A DNA stretch of 64,000 bases, taken from a virus. Positions 46,561-56,387 of the stretch are shown here, piece by piece. The position numbers and the translations under genes were made by a program. Under the pieces are notes generated by a model. That model was not told the DNA's origin, did not search any database, and saw nothing but the letters and a program-made list of their open reading frames with translations. Position 1 is the stretch's first letter. Each line of letters opens with the position of its first letter. The stretch is from positions 1 through 64,000 of IMG/VR virus record IMGVR_UViG_3300045391_000822, one strand, 5' to 3'.

Positions 46561-46636
46561 TGGCTAGTAGCTCAGTTGGTAGAGCGGCGCACTGTTAATG
46601 CGTTGGTCGCTGGTTCGATCCCAGCCTAGCCAGCCA
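46561..46636 (+). tRNA. tRNA-Asn(GTT)
   Basis: cloverleaf, loop CTGTTAA, G73, CCA. Confidence 0.95.
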
Positions 46637-51164: not shown

Positions 51165-51560
51165 GTAGTAGGTGACCTAAAGGTTACGAGAGTGAGAAAT
51201 GAATGGCGGTAAGACGCGGGTTCGATTCCCGCCGGCTCCACCATACACGCCTTGTCTTCATGAAGCACGCCTTAACAGGACGTGTATGATGGGGCTGACA
51301 TGGATTCGATTATCGTGCTGAAGTGGACGCAACTACCCGGGCAAGCGGAGCCCGCTGACCTAGGTCAGGAATACCAAGCAAAGAAGATAAATGCTAACGA
51401 CAGCATCTTTGAGCAGCGCCTCGCGGCCTGATCACATAGTCCCTAGTAAACTGGATAGTTGATAACGATACGATTCCAGGGAGCTAGGTGGGGCCACCGT
51501 GTACCTAGTACACCTGTGTCAGAAACCTACCTTGTCAGATAGGAAGAGTGGCCCACCTCC
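51163..51560 (+). ncRNA. ssrA: circularly permuted (two-piece) tmRNA; outer ends approximate
   Basis: T arm + CGGCTCCACCA ends at 51243, GGGGCTGACATGGATTCGA starts at 51291, G3-U pair, tag ANDSIFEQRLAA* 51393-51431. Confidence 0.88.
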
Positions 51561-52371: not shown

Positions 52372-52444
52372 CTCGCGTGGTCAGGTAGGTTATGTGATGG
52401 ATTGCAATCCATCTAGACTGGTTCGATTCCAGTACGCGAGTCCA
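52372..52444 (+). tRNA. tRNA-Cys(GCA), 6-nt anticodon loop
   Basis: atgga-TTGCAA-tccat, U73, CCA. Confidence 0.75.
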
Positions 52445-52766: not shown

Positions 52767-52994
52767 ATGGGTAAACTGTCCAGGCATAAGAAAACGAAGA
52801 TGGGTGCATTACCTGGTGACATACCTTTGCAGTCCAAGGTAGAAATGCTAGAAAAAGGTAAGGCCGCAATTCGATTTTCAAAAGGCTATTCCCAGGAAAT
52901 GGGAAAGAAGGCGAGTAAGGCATTCAAGAAAATACTACGTGGACCTGAGAGAGCGCGTCTTAAAGAACGCTGTAGAACAGAGTTTGAAGAATAA
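52767..52994 (+). CDS. small basic protein
   Basis: K/R-rich ORF. Confidence 0.55.
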   Translation: MGKLSRHKKTKMGALPGDIPLQSKVEMLEKGKAAIRFSKGYSQEMGKKASKAFKKILRGPERARLKERCRTEFEE

Positions 52995-53032
52995 GTGATT
53001 CCGTAAATAATATGGAGTCGCTTTTCAACTAC

Positions 53033-53104
53033 TTGGTGGCGAGGGCTATCGGTTACTTCCAGACTTTGAATCTGACCAAAACACCGTTGCTAATTATTCC
53101 CCAA
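53033..53104 (+). ncRNA. Y RNA-like 1 (minimal, single hairpin)
   Basis: GGTGGCGAG..GTTACTTC..TATTCCCC ends; caga-CTTTGAA-tctg hairpin. Confidence 0.7.
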
Positions 53105-53157
53105 GTAGCTGAAAAGCGATTCCGTAAATAACTGTGAAGAAGTTATCTTTGATTCTA

Positions 53158-53296
53158 GCAGTGGCGTAGCTGTGCAGTTACTTCGACTGTTAATCGAGTG
53201 GTCGCAGGTTCGAGTCCTGTCACTGCGTAAGTGGTGTAGCTCAGTTGGATAGAGCACTTGGCCGAAAGGCCGTTCCTGCAGGCGAGGGTTCCCTGC
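53158..53296 (+). ncRNA. Y RNA-like 2 (YrlA type)
   Basis: CAGTGGCGTAG..GTTACTTC, CTGTTAA loop, T arm, closed acceptor stem, D arm, GTTCCCTG. Confidence 0.85.
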
Positions 53297-53331
53297 TAGA
53301 ATCAAAGATAATTTAGACTGTTATGATGTGT

Positions 53332-53456
53332 GCGGTGGTGAAGTATACGATTCCATCTCAACCAGTGGGTCGCGGGTTCGAGTCCCGTCTATCCGTCAGG
53401 ATAGTAGATCAGTTGGTAGATCAACCGGCAATTAATCGTACACGATTGTTCCCCGC
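53332..53456 (+). ncRNA. Y RNA-like 3 (YrlA type)
   Basis: CGGTGGTGAAG..., T arm, ctatcc-gtca-ggatag, D arm, TGTTCCCCG. Confidence 0.8.
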
Positions 53457-53487
53457 ACACATCATAGCAGTCTCAGAGTTTTAGTTT

Positions 53488-53633
53488 AGCAGTGGCGTAG
53501 ATAACAGTTACTTCGCATGGAAAGCCGGTACCGTAAGGTTGCGCTAGTTCGAATCTAGCCCCTCCCAAATCTGTGGGAGGGTAGGGAAGTGGATAAACCC
53601 GCCGTAACGTTCTGTTGTCGTTTGTTCCCTGCT
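53488..53633 (+). ncRNA. Y RNA-like 4 (YrlA type, Ser-like)
   Basis: CAGTGGCGTAG..GTTACTTC, ATGGAAA loop, long variable arm, T arm, closed acceptor, D arm, TGTTCCCTG. Confidence 0.82.
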
Positions 53634-53635
53634 TT

Positions 53636-53711
53636 ACATCCATCGTCTAGAGGCCTAGGACACTGCCCTTTCACGGCAGGTACGCGGGTTCGAATCCCGC
53701 TGGGTGTGCCA
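53636..53711 (+). tRNA. tRNA-Glu(TTC)
   Basis: loop CTTTCAC, G73, CCA. Confidence 0.93.
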
Positions 53712-53782
53712 GTTTAGGCTCCTTGTTTCACGGACATGCTAGTCCGAGGTTTTGAAACTGGAACAAGGAGTCCTTCTTAGTT

Positions 53783-53890
53783 TTGCAGTGGCGTAATTAA
53801 TCGAGTTCATCGCTAATTGGATAAGCACTGGGGCTTGGTCCCAGTTTAGTGGTTCGATTCCACGCTCTCGATAATGTCTGTTCCCTGCAA
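53783..53890 (+). ncRNA. Y RNA-like 5 (arms in canonical D-anticodon-T order)
   Basis: CAGTGGCGTAA..., D arm, ctggg-GCTTGGT-cccag, T arm, TGTTCCCTG. Confidence 0.75.
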
Positions 53891-53902
53891 ATTGATTTAT
53901 GT

Positions 53903-53978
53903 GGTGCGTTAGCTCAGTTGGTAGAGCGCTGGATTGTCTATCCAGAAGTCAGGAGTTCGAGCCTCCTACGCATCGCCA
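53903..53978 (+). tRNA. tRNA-Asp(GTC)
   Basis: loop TTGTCTA (U37), G73, CCA. Confidence 0.9.
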
Positions 53979-54073
53979 AGTTTGGACCACCAGCTTGTTA
54001 ACTGAATCTGATTCATATGGCTCAGCGCGCTAGTGACCAGCTTTTTTGTAGAAGCTGGTGGTCCTACTAGTTT

Positions 54074-54189
54074 GGTAGTGGCGTAGTTAGTCGGTTACTT
54101 CTTTGCAAGAGAATGCTAGGTTCGATTCCTGGTGCGGCCGGAAGGCTGTAGGCATGGCGCCAACTACCCGACAACGTTTGTTCCCTACC
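54074..54189 (+). ncRNA. Y RNA-like 6 (YrlA type, reduced D arm)
   Basis: TAGTGGCGTAG..GTTACTTC, TTGCAAG loop, T arm, tgcggcc-ggaa-ggctgta, TGTTCCCTA. Confidence 0.8.
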
Positions 54190-54372
54190 TACCCTGTCTC
54201 TGTTTCTGCCTGACGCAGAGATACGCGCTGTCAAGTTCTTGTAGACCCGGTGGGGCCGGCACCTATGAGGATTTGACAGCGCATCTTTTTGGGGTTGGTG
54301 AGGAAGTTGAACGTCTACGAACTACCGAAGTTCGTTCTTTCATCTGTCACTCTTCACTACAAAGGAGCCAAA

Positions 54373-55845
54373 ATGGCCCACCTCAACCGTAAAGCTGATC
54401 CGCATCGTAAAGCGGTAACCAAAGAATCTGTCCTTAACAATGCTCCGTTCGAGCAACTTTCCCGTGCAGTGATGACCTGCCTGCTGTGGGAAGGTACTGA
54501 AGACGAACGCATATCCAAGCTCGTTCCCAGCGTTCCGCTGGAAGATGTAGCGTACCTGGCACGGACGGCACATGAAGATATGAAGCTGCGCCATGTGCCG
54601 CTACTCCTGGCTCGGGAAATGGCGCGCCATCCAGGTCGTGTGGAAAATCCTTCCGTCATCGCGAACACGATTGAAGCGGTTATCAACCGTCCTGATTCAT
54701 TGACGGAATTCCTGGCTATCTATTGGAAGGATGGACGTCAGCCATTGTCAGGCCAGGTAAAGAAAGGTCTGGCTCGCGCATTTGCAAAATTCAGCGAGTA
54801 TCAACTAGCGAAGTACAATCGTGATCACGAAGTGAAGTTGCGCGACGTGCTCTTCCTTTCACATGCAAAGCCGAAAGACGTTGAACCTGGTTCTGCTTTG
54901 TGGAATAAGGATGCGCGTACCAACTACAAACCAAACAAGGGGTTTGTACGCGAGTTCACGAAAGGCGAACTCCTGTATGGTCGAGTAGTTCACGATCAGT
55001 TGGTTTCCCCAGAAACGTGGGAAAACAAGCTGTCACGCGGCAAAGACAAGAAAGAAACGTTTGCTGATTTGATGAAGAGTGGTAAGTTGGGAGGCCTGGC
55101 TTTCCTGCGTAACCTGCGCAATATCAAAGAAGCCGGCATATCTAAGGATGTGGTCAATAGCTATGCAGATGTAGCCAAGGTTGATGGAATCCTGCCTTTC
55201 CAGTTCATGTCTGCGCAACGTGCAGTTCCTGAATGGGAAGATGCCATCGAGAAGATGATGCTCCGCGCAGTGGAGAACATTCCCAAACTACCAGGACGCA
55301 CGGTGTTGGTTGTGGACTTGTCGGGTTCCATGAGAGCGCAGATGGCAGATAAGTCGGGATTGGAACGTACTGATGTAGCGGCAGCATTCAGTGTTCTGTG
55401 CCGTGAACTGTGCGAGAACATTGCAGTGTTTGCTACGGCAGGTAACGACCATAGCCGGAAGCACGCTACGATAACTGTTCCGCCGCGTCGTGGATTTGCT
55501 TTGGCAGAAAAGCTGCGTGTTGGTGGAGATCAAGAAATCTATCGTCGCATTGGCCAAGGCGGTATTTTCCTTAAGCAGGTTACGGAGTTCGTTTCTGGCA
55601 CCCTTGGTGATCAAGATGTCGAACGTTGTATCGTCATCACTGACGAACAGGATACGGATATCGACGGAACTTCTGCGAAAGCAAAGTTGATCGGTAAACA
55701 CAACTACATCGTCAACATCGCGACGAACGCTCGAGGTATCGGTTACGGACGTTTCACCCATATCAATGGATGGTCCGAAGCTGTACTGAAGTTCATCGCA
55801 GCCTATGAAGCGAACGAAGAAACGATGCACAAAGGTGCAGCTTAA
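54373..55845 (+). CDS. rsr: Ro60/Rsr TROVE-vWA RNA-binding protein
   Basis: EQLSRAVMTCLLWE, LRHVP, FSEYQLAKY, KLRDVLFLSHAKP, TWE, AFLRNLRN, VVDLSGSM (MIDAS), ITDEQ, GWSE; AAGGAG RBS. Confidence 0.92.
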   Translation: MAHLNRKADPHRKAVTKESVLNNAPFEQLSRAVMTCLLWEGTEDERISKLVPSVPLEDVAYLARTAHEDMKLRHVPLLLAREMARHPGRVENPSVIANTIEAVINRPDSLTEFLAIYWKDGRQPLSGQVKKGLARAFAKFSEYQLAKYNRDHEVKLRDVLFLSHAKPKDVEPGSALWNKDARTNYKPNKGFVREFTKGELLYGRVVHDQLVSPETWENKLSRGKDKKETFADLMKSGKLGGLAFLRNLRNIKEAGISKDVVNSYADVAKVDGILPFQFMSAQRAVPEWEDAIEKMMLRAVENIPKLPGRTVLVVDLSGSMRAQMADKSGLERTDVAAAFSVLCRELCENIAVFATAGNDHSRKHATITVPPRRGFALAEKLRVGGDQEIYRRIGQGGIFLKQVTEFVSGTLGDQDVERCIVITDEQDTDIDGTSAKAKLIGKHNYIVNIATNARGIGYGRFTHINGWSEAVLKFIAAYEANEETMHKGAA

Positions 55846-55937: not shown

Positions 55938-56387
55938 ATGAAAGATCCTAATGTAGTGGCAGTCCTAGGACTGTTGTTGGGACTCGGTGTGAAGCATCTC
56001 ATTGTGGACTTCGCATTGCAGCCACCGTACATGTACTTGAACAAAGGAAAATTTGGCCATCCTGGTGGCATCATACACTCGCTCCTACACGCTGCCTCTA
56101 CAATTGTTGTCATTGGTATTTGGTCCGTCGTTACCAAATACGGAATTGCAGGTGCTCATGCGTTGGTTAACATCGTGGTGCTTGAATTCTGGTGGCACTA
56201 CATGACAGACCTGACTAAGGTACGTCTGTGTCAACATTTCGGATGGAGAGCACTTCCTCCCAAGGGGAAGGAGCACGACGTACAAGAATTGGCTAAGTGT
56301 AATTGTTTCTGGATCGCACTAGGTGTTGATCAATTCTCCCATTTTACCAATTACCTGGTCATTGCTTTTGTGATGATGGCTATCTAA
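55938..56387 (+). CDS. DUF3307-like membrane protein
   Basis: KHLIVDFALQ, HSLLH, HYMTD, LGVDQFSH. Confidence 0.8.
   Translation: MKDPNVVAVLGLLLGLGVKHLIVDFALQPPYMYLNKGKFGHPGGIIHSLLHAASTIVVIGIWSVVTKYGIAGAHALVNIVVLEFWWHYMTDLTKVRLCQHFGWRALPPKGKEHDVQELAKCNCFWIALGVDQFSHFTNYLVIAFVMMAI

What the first reader, a model, noticed from the sequence alone, without database searches (positions are those of the whole stretch)
53060..54113. Y RNA units each display a different anticodon-like loop (Gln, Asn, Ser, Cys): possible decoys for anticodon nucleases
Seen: directly after GTTACTTC come 7-nt loops with U at the 33-equivalent position. They are CT-TTG-AA (unit 1), CT-GTT-AA (unit 2, identical to the tRNA-Asn loop at 46561), AT-GGA-AA (unit 4, with a Ser-like long variable arm) and TT-GCA-AG (unit 6). 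None has a free CCA end, so none can be charged. Inference: they may titrate host tRNA-cleaving defences or tRNA-sensing/modifying enzymes. Alternatively they record repeated birth of Y RNAs from different tRNA genes. In units 2 and 4 an alternative pairing with the post-D-arm strand could open the hairpin.
Basis: inference. Interest (0 to 1): 0.8.

Follow-up and report, generated by a model that had tools for sequence, protein, structure and literature searches.

The report
Phage Y RNAs with anticodon arms
Small RNAs that partner the phage's Ro60 protein are complete, unchargeable tRNA look-alikes with a real anticodon-arm mimic whose "anticodon" differs from unit to unit. This feature turns out to be widespread and gives a concrete handle on what these long-puzzling RNAs bind.

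Summary
Unit 2 (CU-GUU-AA) is a textbook anticodon-arm mimic. Unit 4 (AU-GGA-AA) fits the family plan with one mismatch. Units 1 and 6 are doubtful.

Comparison with about 140 related phage units and about 100 bacterial units, mostly beside Ro60 genes, shows the hairpin after the conserved GUUAC motif is not a variable arm. It is the outer three pairs plus the 7-nt loop of an anticodon arm. The inner two pairs come from the two bases after the D arm, with strong covariation. The module is therefore a whole tRNA, permuted at position 28/29, with a closed acceptor stem.

The loops keep U33 (70/73) and a purine at 37 (73/73). A34 is rare, and position 36 is coupled to 37 (UA or GG). The triplet varies, even between sister Caulobacter phages.

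The decoy idea is compatible with this but untested, and bacteria carry the same RNAs. "Repeated birth from different tRNAs" is not supported. The pairing with the post-D strand completes the arm rather than opening it.

Earlier notes in this scan describe related Ro60-like RNA arrays that display anticodon loops on other DNA.

The parts
53014..53124 (+). Y RNA unit 1, short type with no T, D or acceptor parts. It has a long terminal stem, the Ro-type 5' motif GGCGAGG, GTTAC at 53052-56, and a candidate hairpin at 53060-53074 with loop CTTTGAA at 53064-70.
   Evidence: The hairpin is ambiguous (P about 0.09). Short-type relatives have TTC..GAA hairpins with loops of 3-28 nt, mode 7.
53142..53312 (+). 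Y RNA unit 2, a complete permuted tRNA mimic.
- Ro motif 53161-69
- GTTAC 53177-81
- outer anticodon stem 53184-86 / 53194-96
- loop CTGTTAA 53187-93
- positions 42-43 (AG) 53197-98, paired with post-D CT 53257-58
- variable loop TGGTC 53199-203
- T arm 53204-20
- closed acceptor stem 53221-36
- D arm 53239-55
- extra GGCC-GAAA-GGCC hairpin 53261-72
   Evidence: R1 scores 67.7 bits and R2 87.3 bits. The Rfam tRNA model gives 28.3 bits and YrlA 44.8 bits. ARAGORN calls it tRNA-Asn.
53315..53473 (+). Y RNA unit 3, classical YrlA type. It has the T arm, closed acceptor stem and D arm, and post-D AC pairs with GT before the variable loop. It has no outer anticodon hairpin.
   Evidence: Rfam YrlA gives 50.3 bits, below the gathering score of 69. 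R2 gives 52 bits with the hairpin pairs unmatched.
53489..53632 (+). Y RNA unit 4.
- GTTAC 53507-11
- outer stem 53514-16 / 53524-26, with a C-C mismatch
- loop ATGGAAA 53517-23
- GG 53527-28, paired with post-D CC 53602-03
- long variable arm 53529-42
- T arm 53543-59
- closed acceptor stem 53560-81
- degenerate D arm 53584-600
   Evidence: 23.3 bits; 32.5 bits, E 9e-6.
53785..53889 (+). Y RNA unit 5. It has the Ro-type ends but a non-permuted tRNA-like interior (D arm, hairpin with loop GCTTGGT lacking U33, T arm).
   Evidence: tRNA-Sec model 20.9 bits, not significant; 25 bits.
54074..54192 (+). Y RNA unit 6.
- GTTAC 54094-98
- hairpin 54099-54113 (TTCT / TTGCAAG / AGAA, or 6 bp with a GCA triloop)
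- only TG before the T arm at 54116-32
- acceptor stem closed by GGAA
- truncated D arm
   Evidence: 16.7 bits, E 0.04.
54373..55845 (+). Ro60 / TROVE-domain protein gene (490 aa), the presumed protein partner of the six RNAs.
   Evidence: Pfam TROVE, E 4e-15. The best relatives are 40% identical in cultured phages and 49% in IMG/VR.
53636..53711 (+). Genuine tRNA-Glu(UUC), interleaved in the Y RNA array.
53903..53978 (+). Genuine tRNA-Asp(GUC), interleaved in the Y RNA array.

Best explanation
The hairpins are the outer half of a genuine anticodon-arm mimic built into Ro60-partner Y RNAs.

Architecture. In the full form (unit 2, and less perfectly unit 4) the RNA is a whole tRNA body: T arm, acceptor stem, D arm, a 4-5-nt variable loop, and a 5-bp anticodon stem with a 7-nt loop. 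Its chain is permuted. The acceptor stem is closed by a small loop. The two ends leave the anticodon stem between positions 28 and 29 and form the Ro60-binding stem. This architecture is shown by covariation.

Selection on the loop. Selection keeps the loop tRNA-like (U33, purine 37, A38, few A34, coupled 36-37), while the triplet differs between units and between related phages. This is shown statistically.

Inferred function. Each unit therefore offers a different, unchargeable tRNA 'identity' to proteins that read tRNA shape plus anticodon loop. The most likely use is as Ro60-tethered pseudo-substrates or competitors, or as cleavable sentinels that release Ro60. The targets would be anticodon-loop enzymes, anticodon nucleases first of all.

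My odds: architecture about 0.9; the loop is read by an anticodon-loop protein about 0.55; specifically a nuclease decoy or sentinel about 0.25-0.3.
For: Family and linkage to Ro60.
- The GTGGCG-(T/A)AG-N6-7-GTTACTTC scaffold lies on the Ro60 strand beside Ro60 in most of 56 loci found through the protein.
- Units found by RNA pattern alone have a Ro60 homologue in the held stretch in 84 of 116 viral loci. The same holds for 30 of 39 bacterial loci carrying anticodon-arm units.

Anticodon-arm register.
- Of 138 non-redundant T-arm units, 95 have 19-23 nt between GTTAC and the T stem.
- Of those, 75 (73 unique) fit the tRNA register of 5 + 7 + 5 nt plus a 4-5-nt variable loop.

Stem covariation.
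- The outer pairs covary: 8 and 13 double changes with none unpaired, and 0 of 500 shuffles reach the score.
- Positions 42-43 pair with the two bases after N26 in 58 of 64 units. That is 116 of 128 Watson-Crick cells and 7 dinucleotide types, against 75 +/- 3.5 in shuffles (0 of 2000).
- The tool count on A3 gives 100% paired, with 16 and 3 double changes.

Loop composition.
- T33 70/73, R37 73/73, A38 65/73, no G32, A34 5/73.
- Positions 36-37: TA 41, GG 23, GA 2, TG 0.
- This differs from 204 real tRNAs of the same loci (chi-square p 6e-7).
- 53% of loops are exact 7-mers of real tRNA loops, against 35 +/- 4% after column shuffling.

Triplet change and conservation.
- Coupled TA to GG switches occur in three close pairs.
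- The corresponding units of CcrColossus, CcrPW and Papperlapapp read AU-CUG-GA, AU-UAG-GA and AU-GUG-GA; the CcrColossus and CcrPW units have the same stems and T arm.
- CU-GUU-AA recurs in the window, Tabio, CcrColossus and CcrPW.

Other.
- The Y RNA arm model hits a real tRNA-Thr at 35.5 bits.
- Hughes et al. 2020 (PMC7790460) already suggested that the YrlA tRNA-like domain may act as a competitive inhibitor of an anticodon nuclease.
Against: - There are no functional data of any kind.
- Among close relatives the triplet diverges at about the same rate as the sequence-free acceptor and P2 helices. Neutral drift at positions 34-35 is therefore not excluded.
- The family is also present beside Ro60 in bacterial genome assemblies, so it is not a phage-only weapon.
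- About 45% of T-arm units lack the arm, as do units 3 and 5 here.
- Short-type units have loops of 3-28 nt.
- Units 1 and 6 of the window are poor mimics.
- The held 155.6 kb of this phage, estimated 66% complete, has no RtcB, Rnl2-type ligase or CCA-adding enzyme.
- Salmonella YrlA, which lacks the loop, is not cut by the SOS-induced anticodon nuclease (PMC7790460).
- A decoy would have to compete with abundant tRNAs.
- The sequences are related to one another, so the p-values overstate independence.
Confidence: 0.4

Rival explanations
1. Structural relic. The arm is kept only because a complete tRNA fold, with a U-turn loop, stabilises the RNA or the elbow that the true effector binds. The triplet is neutral and carries no identity.
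For: - The triplet diverges at the rate of unconstrained helices.
- Many units do without the arm.
- Wang et al. 2018 (10.1101/312249) expect the effector to bind the conserved elbow.
- Chen et al. 2014 (PMC4201824) proposed that the stable tRNA fold protects the RNA against nucleases.
Against: - A34 is depleted (8/113).
- G36-A37 is avoided although it is common in real tRNAs (Fisher p 2e-4).
- Coupled TA-GG double changes have occurred repeatedly.
- Exact real-tRNA 7-mers are in excess.
- GUU recurs across very distant phages.
- None of these is needed for a mere U-turn hairpin.
Confidence: 0.3
2. The loops recruit or titrate non-nuclease tRNA enzymes, such as the position-37 enzymes TrmD or the t6A machinery, Tgt, or a synthetase anticodon-binding domain. 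Either the enzymes modify and stabilise the Y RNA, or the RNA tethers Ro60 to them.
For: - Phage loops are almost all U36-A37 or G36-G37 (64 of 73). From established knowledge, these are the determinants of t6A37 and m1G37.
- 16 of 73 loops carry G34-U35, the Tgt determinant.
- Salmonella YrlA is modified by TruB and DusA (PMC4201824).
Against: - Bacterial members have a broader, more tRNA-like 36-37 spectrum.
- No modification data exist for the loop.
- No obvious benefit to a phage is known.
Confidence: 0.15
3. One reading: each unit was born separately from a different tRNA gene (or tRNA dimer), and the loop is a fossil of that donor.
For: - Unit 4 joins a Ser-type triplet (GGA) with a long variable arm.
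- Unit 2 shares its loop and variable loop with the phage tRNA-Asn.
- Wang et al. 2018 cite a model in which YrlA arose from dimeric tRNA transcripts (10.1101/312249).
Against: - Units with different triplets share GUUAC-UU, identical stems and T arms.
- The anticodon stems do not match those of the cognate phage tRNAs.
- A change of 1-3 loop bases between sister phages is point change, not new birth.
Confidence: 0.07
4. The units are permuted or split tRNA genes. They are opened at the acceptor loop, CCA-tailed, and used in translation.
For: M. smegmatis YrlA is cut by RNase P and receives CCA (PMC4201824). The phage also uses a two-piece tmRNA.
Against: - The acceptor stems are closed by tetraloops and lack a discriminator or CCA, while the eight real tRNA genes printed all end in CCA.
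- A large Ro60 stem projects from the anticodon stem.
- Triplets such as AUG, AAG and ACC occur.
Confidence: 0.03

Closest known systems
YrlA-type Y RNAs of bacteria and mycobacteriophages (Rfam RF02553; Chen et al. 2014, PMC4201824; Salmonella YrlA structure, Wang et al. 2018, 10.1101/312249)
   Same: - Encoded next to Ro60.
- 5' GNCGAA-G-like motif.
- Conserved YUAY (here the UUAC of GUUAC).
- T arm, closed acceptor-like stem and D arm in permuted order.
[quoted passage not shown]
   Different: - That stem-loop was labelled V and equated with the variable arm.
- Salmonella YrlA 'lacks the anticodon loop', and its anticodon stem runs straight into the Ro60 stem.
- Here the hairpin is the outer anticodon stem plus a 7-nt tRNA-type loop. 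A separate 4-5-nt variable loop follows, and the Ro60 stem branches off at 28/29.
- The window units stay below the Rfam gathering score (50.3 and 44.8 against 69).
Y RNA arrays of cultured phages: Caulobacter phages CcrColossus and CcrPW, Brevundimonas phage Papperlapapp, and the Xanthomonas phage Tabio group
   Same: - Arrays of 5-8 units with the same scaffold upstream of the Ro60 gene.
- Units with CU-GUU-AA arms identical to unit 2 (R2 88.4, 72.7 and 73.0 bits).
- A second arm-bearing unit with a variable triplet.
   Different: Their Ro60 proteins are only about 40% identical to the window's. Their units are unannotated or mislabelled: one is annotated tRNA-Gln in CcrColossus.
Deinococcus radiodurans Yrn1
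   Same: Chen et al. 2014 drew a potential 'anticodon arm' with a 5-bp stem.
   Different: - The loop is 6 nt.
- The T and D elements are oriented differently.
- There is no full D arm.
- The authors regard it as independently evolved (PMC4201824).
Thermus phage phiLo Ro60 with Yrl1/Yrl2 (PMC12135203)
   Same: A phage Ro60 binds phage-encoded Y-like RNAs and can assemble with host PNPase. The authors propose a role in escaping host defence.
   Different: In the passages I read, those RNAs are described as stem-bulge-stem Y RNAs, with no tRNA-like module or anticodon loop mentioned.
RNA-level counter-measures in the tRNA arms race (from my own knowledge, not checked here): phage tRNAs with altered anticodon loops that escape anticodon nucleases, T4 tRNA repair after PrrC, and pseudo-ToxI RNA decoys
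   Same: A phage nucleic acid neutralises an RNA-targeting host enzyme by replacing or imitating its substrate or inhibitor.
   Different: None of these is a Ro60-bound, unchargeable tRNA mimic. No decoy for an anticodon nuclease has been shown.
Permuted tRNA genes of Cyanidioschyzon merolae (from my own knowledge)
   Same: The 3' half precedes the 5' half, and the two acceptor strands are joined by a short linker.
   Different: Those are processed into normal, charged tRNAs. Here the break point carries a Ro60-binding stem, and nothing suggests maturation.

Membership tests
YrlA-type Y RNA | Encoded next to, and on the same strand as, a Ro60/TROVE gene | tested here: met
   The TROVE protein is at 54373-55845. 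All six units lie 0.2-1.4 kb upstream on the + strand.
YrlA-type Y RNA | 5' GNCGAAN0-1G-like motif in a terminal stem formed by the 5' and 3' ends | tested here: met
   The units carry GGCGTAG, GGCGAGG or GGTGAAG in long terminal stems, with a 3' GTTCCC partner. The match to the published motif is approximate (T for A in four units).
YrlA-type Y RNA | T arm, closed acceptor-like stem and D arm in that order, with conserved YUAY upstream | tested here: met
   Units 2, 3, 4 and 6. YUAY corresponds to the UUAC of GUUAC. Unit 1 lacks the tRNA module, and unit 5 is not permuted.
YrlA-type Y RNA | Score at or above the Rfam RF02553 gathering threshold | tested here: not met
   Best scores are 50.3 bits (unit 3) and 44.8 bits (unit 2, partial) against 69. 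The Rfam model treats the hairpin as an insertion.
YrlA-type Y RNA | Bound by Ro60 in vivo | not testable with these tools
   Needs immunoprecipitation or EMSA.
Canonical tRNA | 5-bp anticodon stem, 7-nt loop with U33 and purine 37, 4-5-nt or long variable region, T arm | tested here: met
   Unit 2 meets it fully. Unit 4 has 4 of 5 pairs.
Canonical tRNA | Free 5' and 3' acceptor ends with a discriminator base and CCA | tested here: not met
   The acceptor strands are joined by GTAA, AAATCTGT or GGAA loops. The eight real tRNA genes printed all end in CCA.
Canonical tRNA | Score at or above the Rfam RF00005 gathering threshold | tested here: not met
   Unit 2 scores 28.3 against 29. ARAGORN nevertheless calls it tRNA-Asn.
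Decoy or pseudo-substrate of anticodon nucleases | Binds, is cut by, or inhibits a tRNA anticodon nuclease, and protects the phage | not testable with these tools
   No host, nuclease or expression data are available.

The most novel reading that the evidence does not exclude
Ro60-Y RNA arrays are a switchable anti-nuclease system. Each Y RNA presents one tRNA identity as an unchargeable bait held on Ro60. The bait soaks up an anticodon-specific nuclease, or is cut by it and thereby releases Ro60. Phages and bacteria retune the bait by one or two loop mutations, obeying the 36-37 rule, as opposing nucleases change. This would give bacterial Y RNAs their long-missing function and add an RNA-mimic layer to the tRNA arms race.
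Probability: 0.25. Interest if true: 0.85.

Novelty: new variant of a known kind. Interest (0 to 1): 0.62.

Why it matters
What the tRNA-like domain of bacterial and phage Y RNAs binds has been open since 2014. The solved example lacks an anticodon loop, so attention went to the elbow.

This analysis shows that a large and widespread branch of the family carries a complete anticodon arm. The arm is built from a split stem, and its loop obeys tRNA rules while its triplet changes between sister phages. That points the search for the effector at anticodon-loop readers: nucleases, position-34 and position-37 enzymes, and synthetase anticodon-binding domains.

It also names cultured systems in which this can be tested: Caulobacter phages CcrColossus and CcrPW, and the Xanthomonas phage Tabio group.

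Finally, it explains why tRNA finders and at least one RefSeq record label Y RNA modules as tRNA genes.

Tried and rejected
- A 'longest contiguous hairpin' scan of the segment after GTTAC was too noisy because of competing pairings. I replaced it with a fixed tRNA register counted back from the T stem.
- The MAFFT alignment A1 placed a gap inside the loop for the 21-nt class, so I did not use it for pair counts.
- I first read the arm as a simple 5-bp hairpin with two U-G/U-A pairs from the invariant UU. I dropped this once the post-D dinucleotide was seen to covary with 42-43.
- I considered a pseudoknot between loop bases 36-38 (UAA or GGA) and the invariant GUUACUUC. I set it aside because it explains neither U33, the 7-nt length, nor the broader 36-37 spectrum of the bacterial members.
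- I looked for evidence of diversifying selection. The triplet changes 3-9 times faster than the conserved scaffold, but no faster than unconstrained helices. No such claim is made.
- RtcB, Rnl2-type RNA ligase and CCA-adding enzyme families were not found in the held 155.6 kb.
- The promoter and terminator scan of the array gave nothing above chance.
- Three papers are not held: Sim and Wolin 2018, Sim et al. 2020, and Burroughs and Aravind 2016.
Full report
**What is there.** The window is the first 64 kb of a 155.6-kb IMG/VR virus record, estimated 66% complete. It carries 20 tRNA genes, two doubtful tRNA calls and a permuted tmRNA gene. Between 53.0 and 54.2 kb lie six small RNA units, interleaved with genuine tRNA-Glu and tRNA-Asp genes. 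A 490-aa TROVE/Ro60 gene follows at 54373-55845. Each unit has a long terminal stem with a 5' GGCG(T/A)AG-type motif and a 3' GTTCCC partner. Rfam's YrlA model matches unit 3 at 50.3 bits and part of unit 2 at 44.8 bits, both below the gathering score of 69. These are therefore Y RNAs of the YrlA kind, already reported beside Ro60 in more than 250 bacteria and phages (Chen et al. 2014, PMC4201824).

**The observation.** The four loops are at the stated places:
- CTTTGAA at 53064-70
- CTGTTAA at 53187-93
- ATGGAAA at 53517-23
- TTGCAAG at 54103-09

Each lies 1-4 bases after GTTACTTC. Unit 2's loop and variable loop equal those of the phage tRNA-Asn. Unit 4 has a 14-nt extra arm. No unit has a free CCA end, whereas the eight real tRNA genes printed all end in CCA.

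**Is it more than chance?** Ro60-guided loci showed that GTGGCG-(T/A)AG-N6-7-GTTACTTC recurs on the Ro60 strand next to the gene in most of 56 metagenomic phage loci.

A pattern scan required only the Ro motif, GTTACTTC and part of a T loop. It placed no constraint on what lies between, and it added about 115 viral loci and 120 bacterial-genome loci. A Ro60 homologue lies within the held stretch in 84 of 116 of these viral loci. The same holds for 30 of 39 bacterial loci with arm-bearing units.

There are 138 non-redundant viral units with a T arm. Of these, 95 have 19-23 nt between GTTAC and the T stem. Of those, 75 (73 unique) fit a tRNA register counted back from the T stem: a 4-5-nt variable loop (mostly AGGTC or TGGTC), then 5 + 7 + 5 nt.

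**Architecture.** The two pairs next to the loop covary freely, with 8 and 13 double changes, no unpaired cell, and 0 of 500 shuffles reaching the score.

The decisive point is the inner end of the stem. Positions 42-43 do not rely on the invariant UU after GUUAC. They pair with the two bases that follow N26 after the D stem.
- In 58 of 64 units both pairs form.
- 116 of 128 cells are Watson-Crick.
- Seven dinucleotide combinations occur: CT:AG, CG:CG, CC:GG, CA:TG, GC:GC, TC:GA and AC:GT.
- Partner shuffles give 75 +/- 3.5, with 0 of 2000 reaching 117.
- The tool count on alignment A3 gives 100% pairing, with 16 and 3 double changes.

The anticodon stem is therefore split. Pairs 27:43 and 28:42 use the strand coming from the D arm, as in a real tRNA. 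Pairs 29-31:39-41 and the loop form the hairpin. The Ro60-binding stem leaves between positions 28 and 29.

The module is a complete tRNA, permuted at 28/29, with a closed acceptor stem. Chen et al. called this hairpin 'V' and equated it with the variable arm. The solved Salmonella YrlA has no such loop (Wang et al. 2018, 10.1101/312249). A model of the Y RNA arm plus T arm hits the window's real tRNA-Thr at 35.5 bits.

**The loop.** In the 73 viral arms:

| Position | Count |
|---|---|
| 33 | T in 70 |
| 37 | purine in 73 |
| 38 | A in 65 |
| 32 | never G |
| 34 | A in only 5 |

Positions 36-37 are TA in 41 arms and GG in 23, but GA in 2 and TG in 0.

In 204 real tRNAs from the same loci, GA (24) is as common as GG (23). 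The two distributions differ (chi-square p 6e-7; Fisher p 2e-4 for GG against GA).

The 40 bacterial arms keep T33 (37/40) and R37 (37/40), with a broader, more tRNA-like 36-37 spectrum.

Overall, 53% of the arms carry an exact 7-mer seen in a real tRNA loop. After shuffling columns the figure is 35 +/- 4% (0 of 2000 shuffles reach 53%).

The triplets are varied:

| Triplet | Count |
|---|---|
| GTT | 10 |
| GCT | 9 |
| TGT | 7 |
| TGG | 6 |
| GTG | 5 |
| TTT | 5 |
| TAG | 4 |

All these p-values treat related sequences as independent, so they are optimistic.

**How the triplet evolves.** Units with nearly identical scaffolds differ in the triplet. Its per-site divergence is 3-9 times that of the other 50 nt. 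It is about equal to that of the acceptor and P2 helices, whose sequence is free. I therefore cannot claim diversifying selection.

Three close pairs show the same coupled change, T36-A37 to G36-G37. In L040/L043 and L091/L117 this double change is among only 4-5 differences in about 125 nt.

In cultured phages the corresponding unit reads AU-CUG-GA in CcrColossus, AU-UAG-GA in CcrPW and AU-GUG-GA in Papperlapapp. The CcrColossus and CcrPW units have the same stems and T arm. The CU-GUU-AA unit, by contrast, is the same in the window, Tabio, CcrColossus and CcrPW. There is therefore both conservation and switching. The scaffold constancy argues against separate births from different tRNA genes.

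**The window's units, one by one.** Scores are from the full-module model R2.
- Unit 2 scores 87.3 bits (it was in the training set). The independent Tabio unit scores 88.4. Its CT at 53257-58 pairs with AG at 53197-98.
- Unit 4 scores 32.5 bits. CC at 53602-03 pairs with GG at 53527-28. It has one C-C mismatch and a long variable arm. On its own the hairpin is weak (P about 0.06).
- Unit 6 scores 16.7 bits and has only two bases before the T stem. Thermodynamics prefers a triloop, and the similarly built third unit of Tabio has TTCT-TGC-AGAA. Its 'Cys' loop is probably not an anticodon mimic.
- Unit 1 is a short-type Y RNA. Its relatives have a TTC..GAA hairpin with loops of 3-28 nt (mode 7, only weakly tRNA-like). 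The proposed hairpin has P about 0.09.
- Unit 3 is a classical YrlA without the outer hairpin.
- Unit 5 is a non-permuted variant.

**Function.** The architecture and the tRNA-like constraints on the loop are shown. What reads the loop is inferred.

The closed acceptor stem excludes charging. The 36-37 coupling and the shortage of A34 have no decoding reason in such an RNA. They do make sense if proteins that recognise real anticodon loops bind it.

My leading reading is a Ro60-tethered pseudo-substrate, competitor or sentinel for anticodon-loop enzymes, nucleases first (about 0.25-0.3 for nucleases specifically). Hughes et al. 2020 (PMC7790460) raised competitive inhibition for Salmonella YrlA. 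The phiLo study proposes a defence-escape role for a phage Ro60 particle (PMC12135203).

Points against this reading:
- The family also occurs in bacteria.
- The triplet rate looks neutral.
- Many units lack the arm.
- No RNA-repair genes are in the held contig.
- A decoy faces the stoichiometric problem of competing with abundant tRNAs.

The rival readings are a structural relic, recruitment of modification enzymes, separate births from tRNAs, and functional split tRNAs.

**Novelty.** Y RNAs beside phage Ro60, their tRNA-like domain, YUAY and the extra stem-loop are all published. In the papers I could search I found none of the following:
- the split anticodon stem
- the complete 7-nt tRNA-type loop
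- its 36-37 rule
- triplet switching between sister phages
- arrays that offer several identities

Three relevant reviews or analyses are not held, so prior mention cannot be excluded.

Earlier unchecked notes of this scan describe Ro60-like proteins with RNA arrays displaying anticodon loops on other DNA. I did not use them as evidence.

Noticed in passing
window 52372-52444: A tRNA-like gene with a CCA end whose anticodon stem closes a 6-nt loop, TTGCAA. ARAGORN reports a 2-base anticodon. It lies directly before tRNA-Ser(GCU), and its loop resembles that of Y unit 6.
   Followed up: no
L301 2418-2485 (NC_019406.1 109217-109284); window 53157-53228: The RefSeq record of Caulobacter phage CcrColossus annotates the arm-plus-T-arm part of a Y RNA unit as tRNA-Gln (D866_gt024). 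ARAGORN likewise called 16 Y RNA units tRNAs, including the 'tRNA-Asn' inside unit 2 of the window.
   Followed up: partly
window 53717-53772 and 53984-54068: Two long, nearly perfect hairpins (13-14 bp stems) sit directly after tRNA-Glu and tRNA-Asp, between Y units. They have no T tract and no match to the Y scaffold. Their role is unknown (processing signals?).
   Followed up: no
window 51183-51232: The permuted tmRNA carries GUUAC 23 nt upstream of its T arm, so the Y RNA arm model R1 matches it at 23.3 bits. This may be coincidence or shared ancestry of tRNA-like parts.
   Followed up: no
related loci L001-L172, strand after positions 27-28: The linker from the split anticodon stem back to the Ro60 stem falls into two conserved types, AAAAUYUC and (U)AACGU(A/U)C. 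The second type can pair with GUUAC with one bulged U. Unit 4 of the window has a perfect GTAAC complement at 53604-08.
   Followed up: partly
window 52999-53012 and 53119-53132: The direct repeat GATTCCGTAAATAA flanks Y unit 1. The only sigma-70-like match in the array (52984-53011) overlaps the first copy, but that scan was not above chance.
   Followed up: partly
window 53785-53889: Y unit 5 keeps the Ro-type ends but holds a non-permuted tRNA-like body, in which the Ro stem continues into the acceptor-like stem. Its hairpin loop GCTTGGT lacks U33.
   Followed up: partly
window 55938-56387: A DUF3307 membrane-type protein gene lies directly downstream of Ro60. I did not check whether this pairing is conserved.
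   Followed up: no
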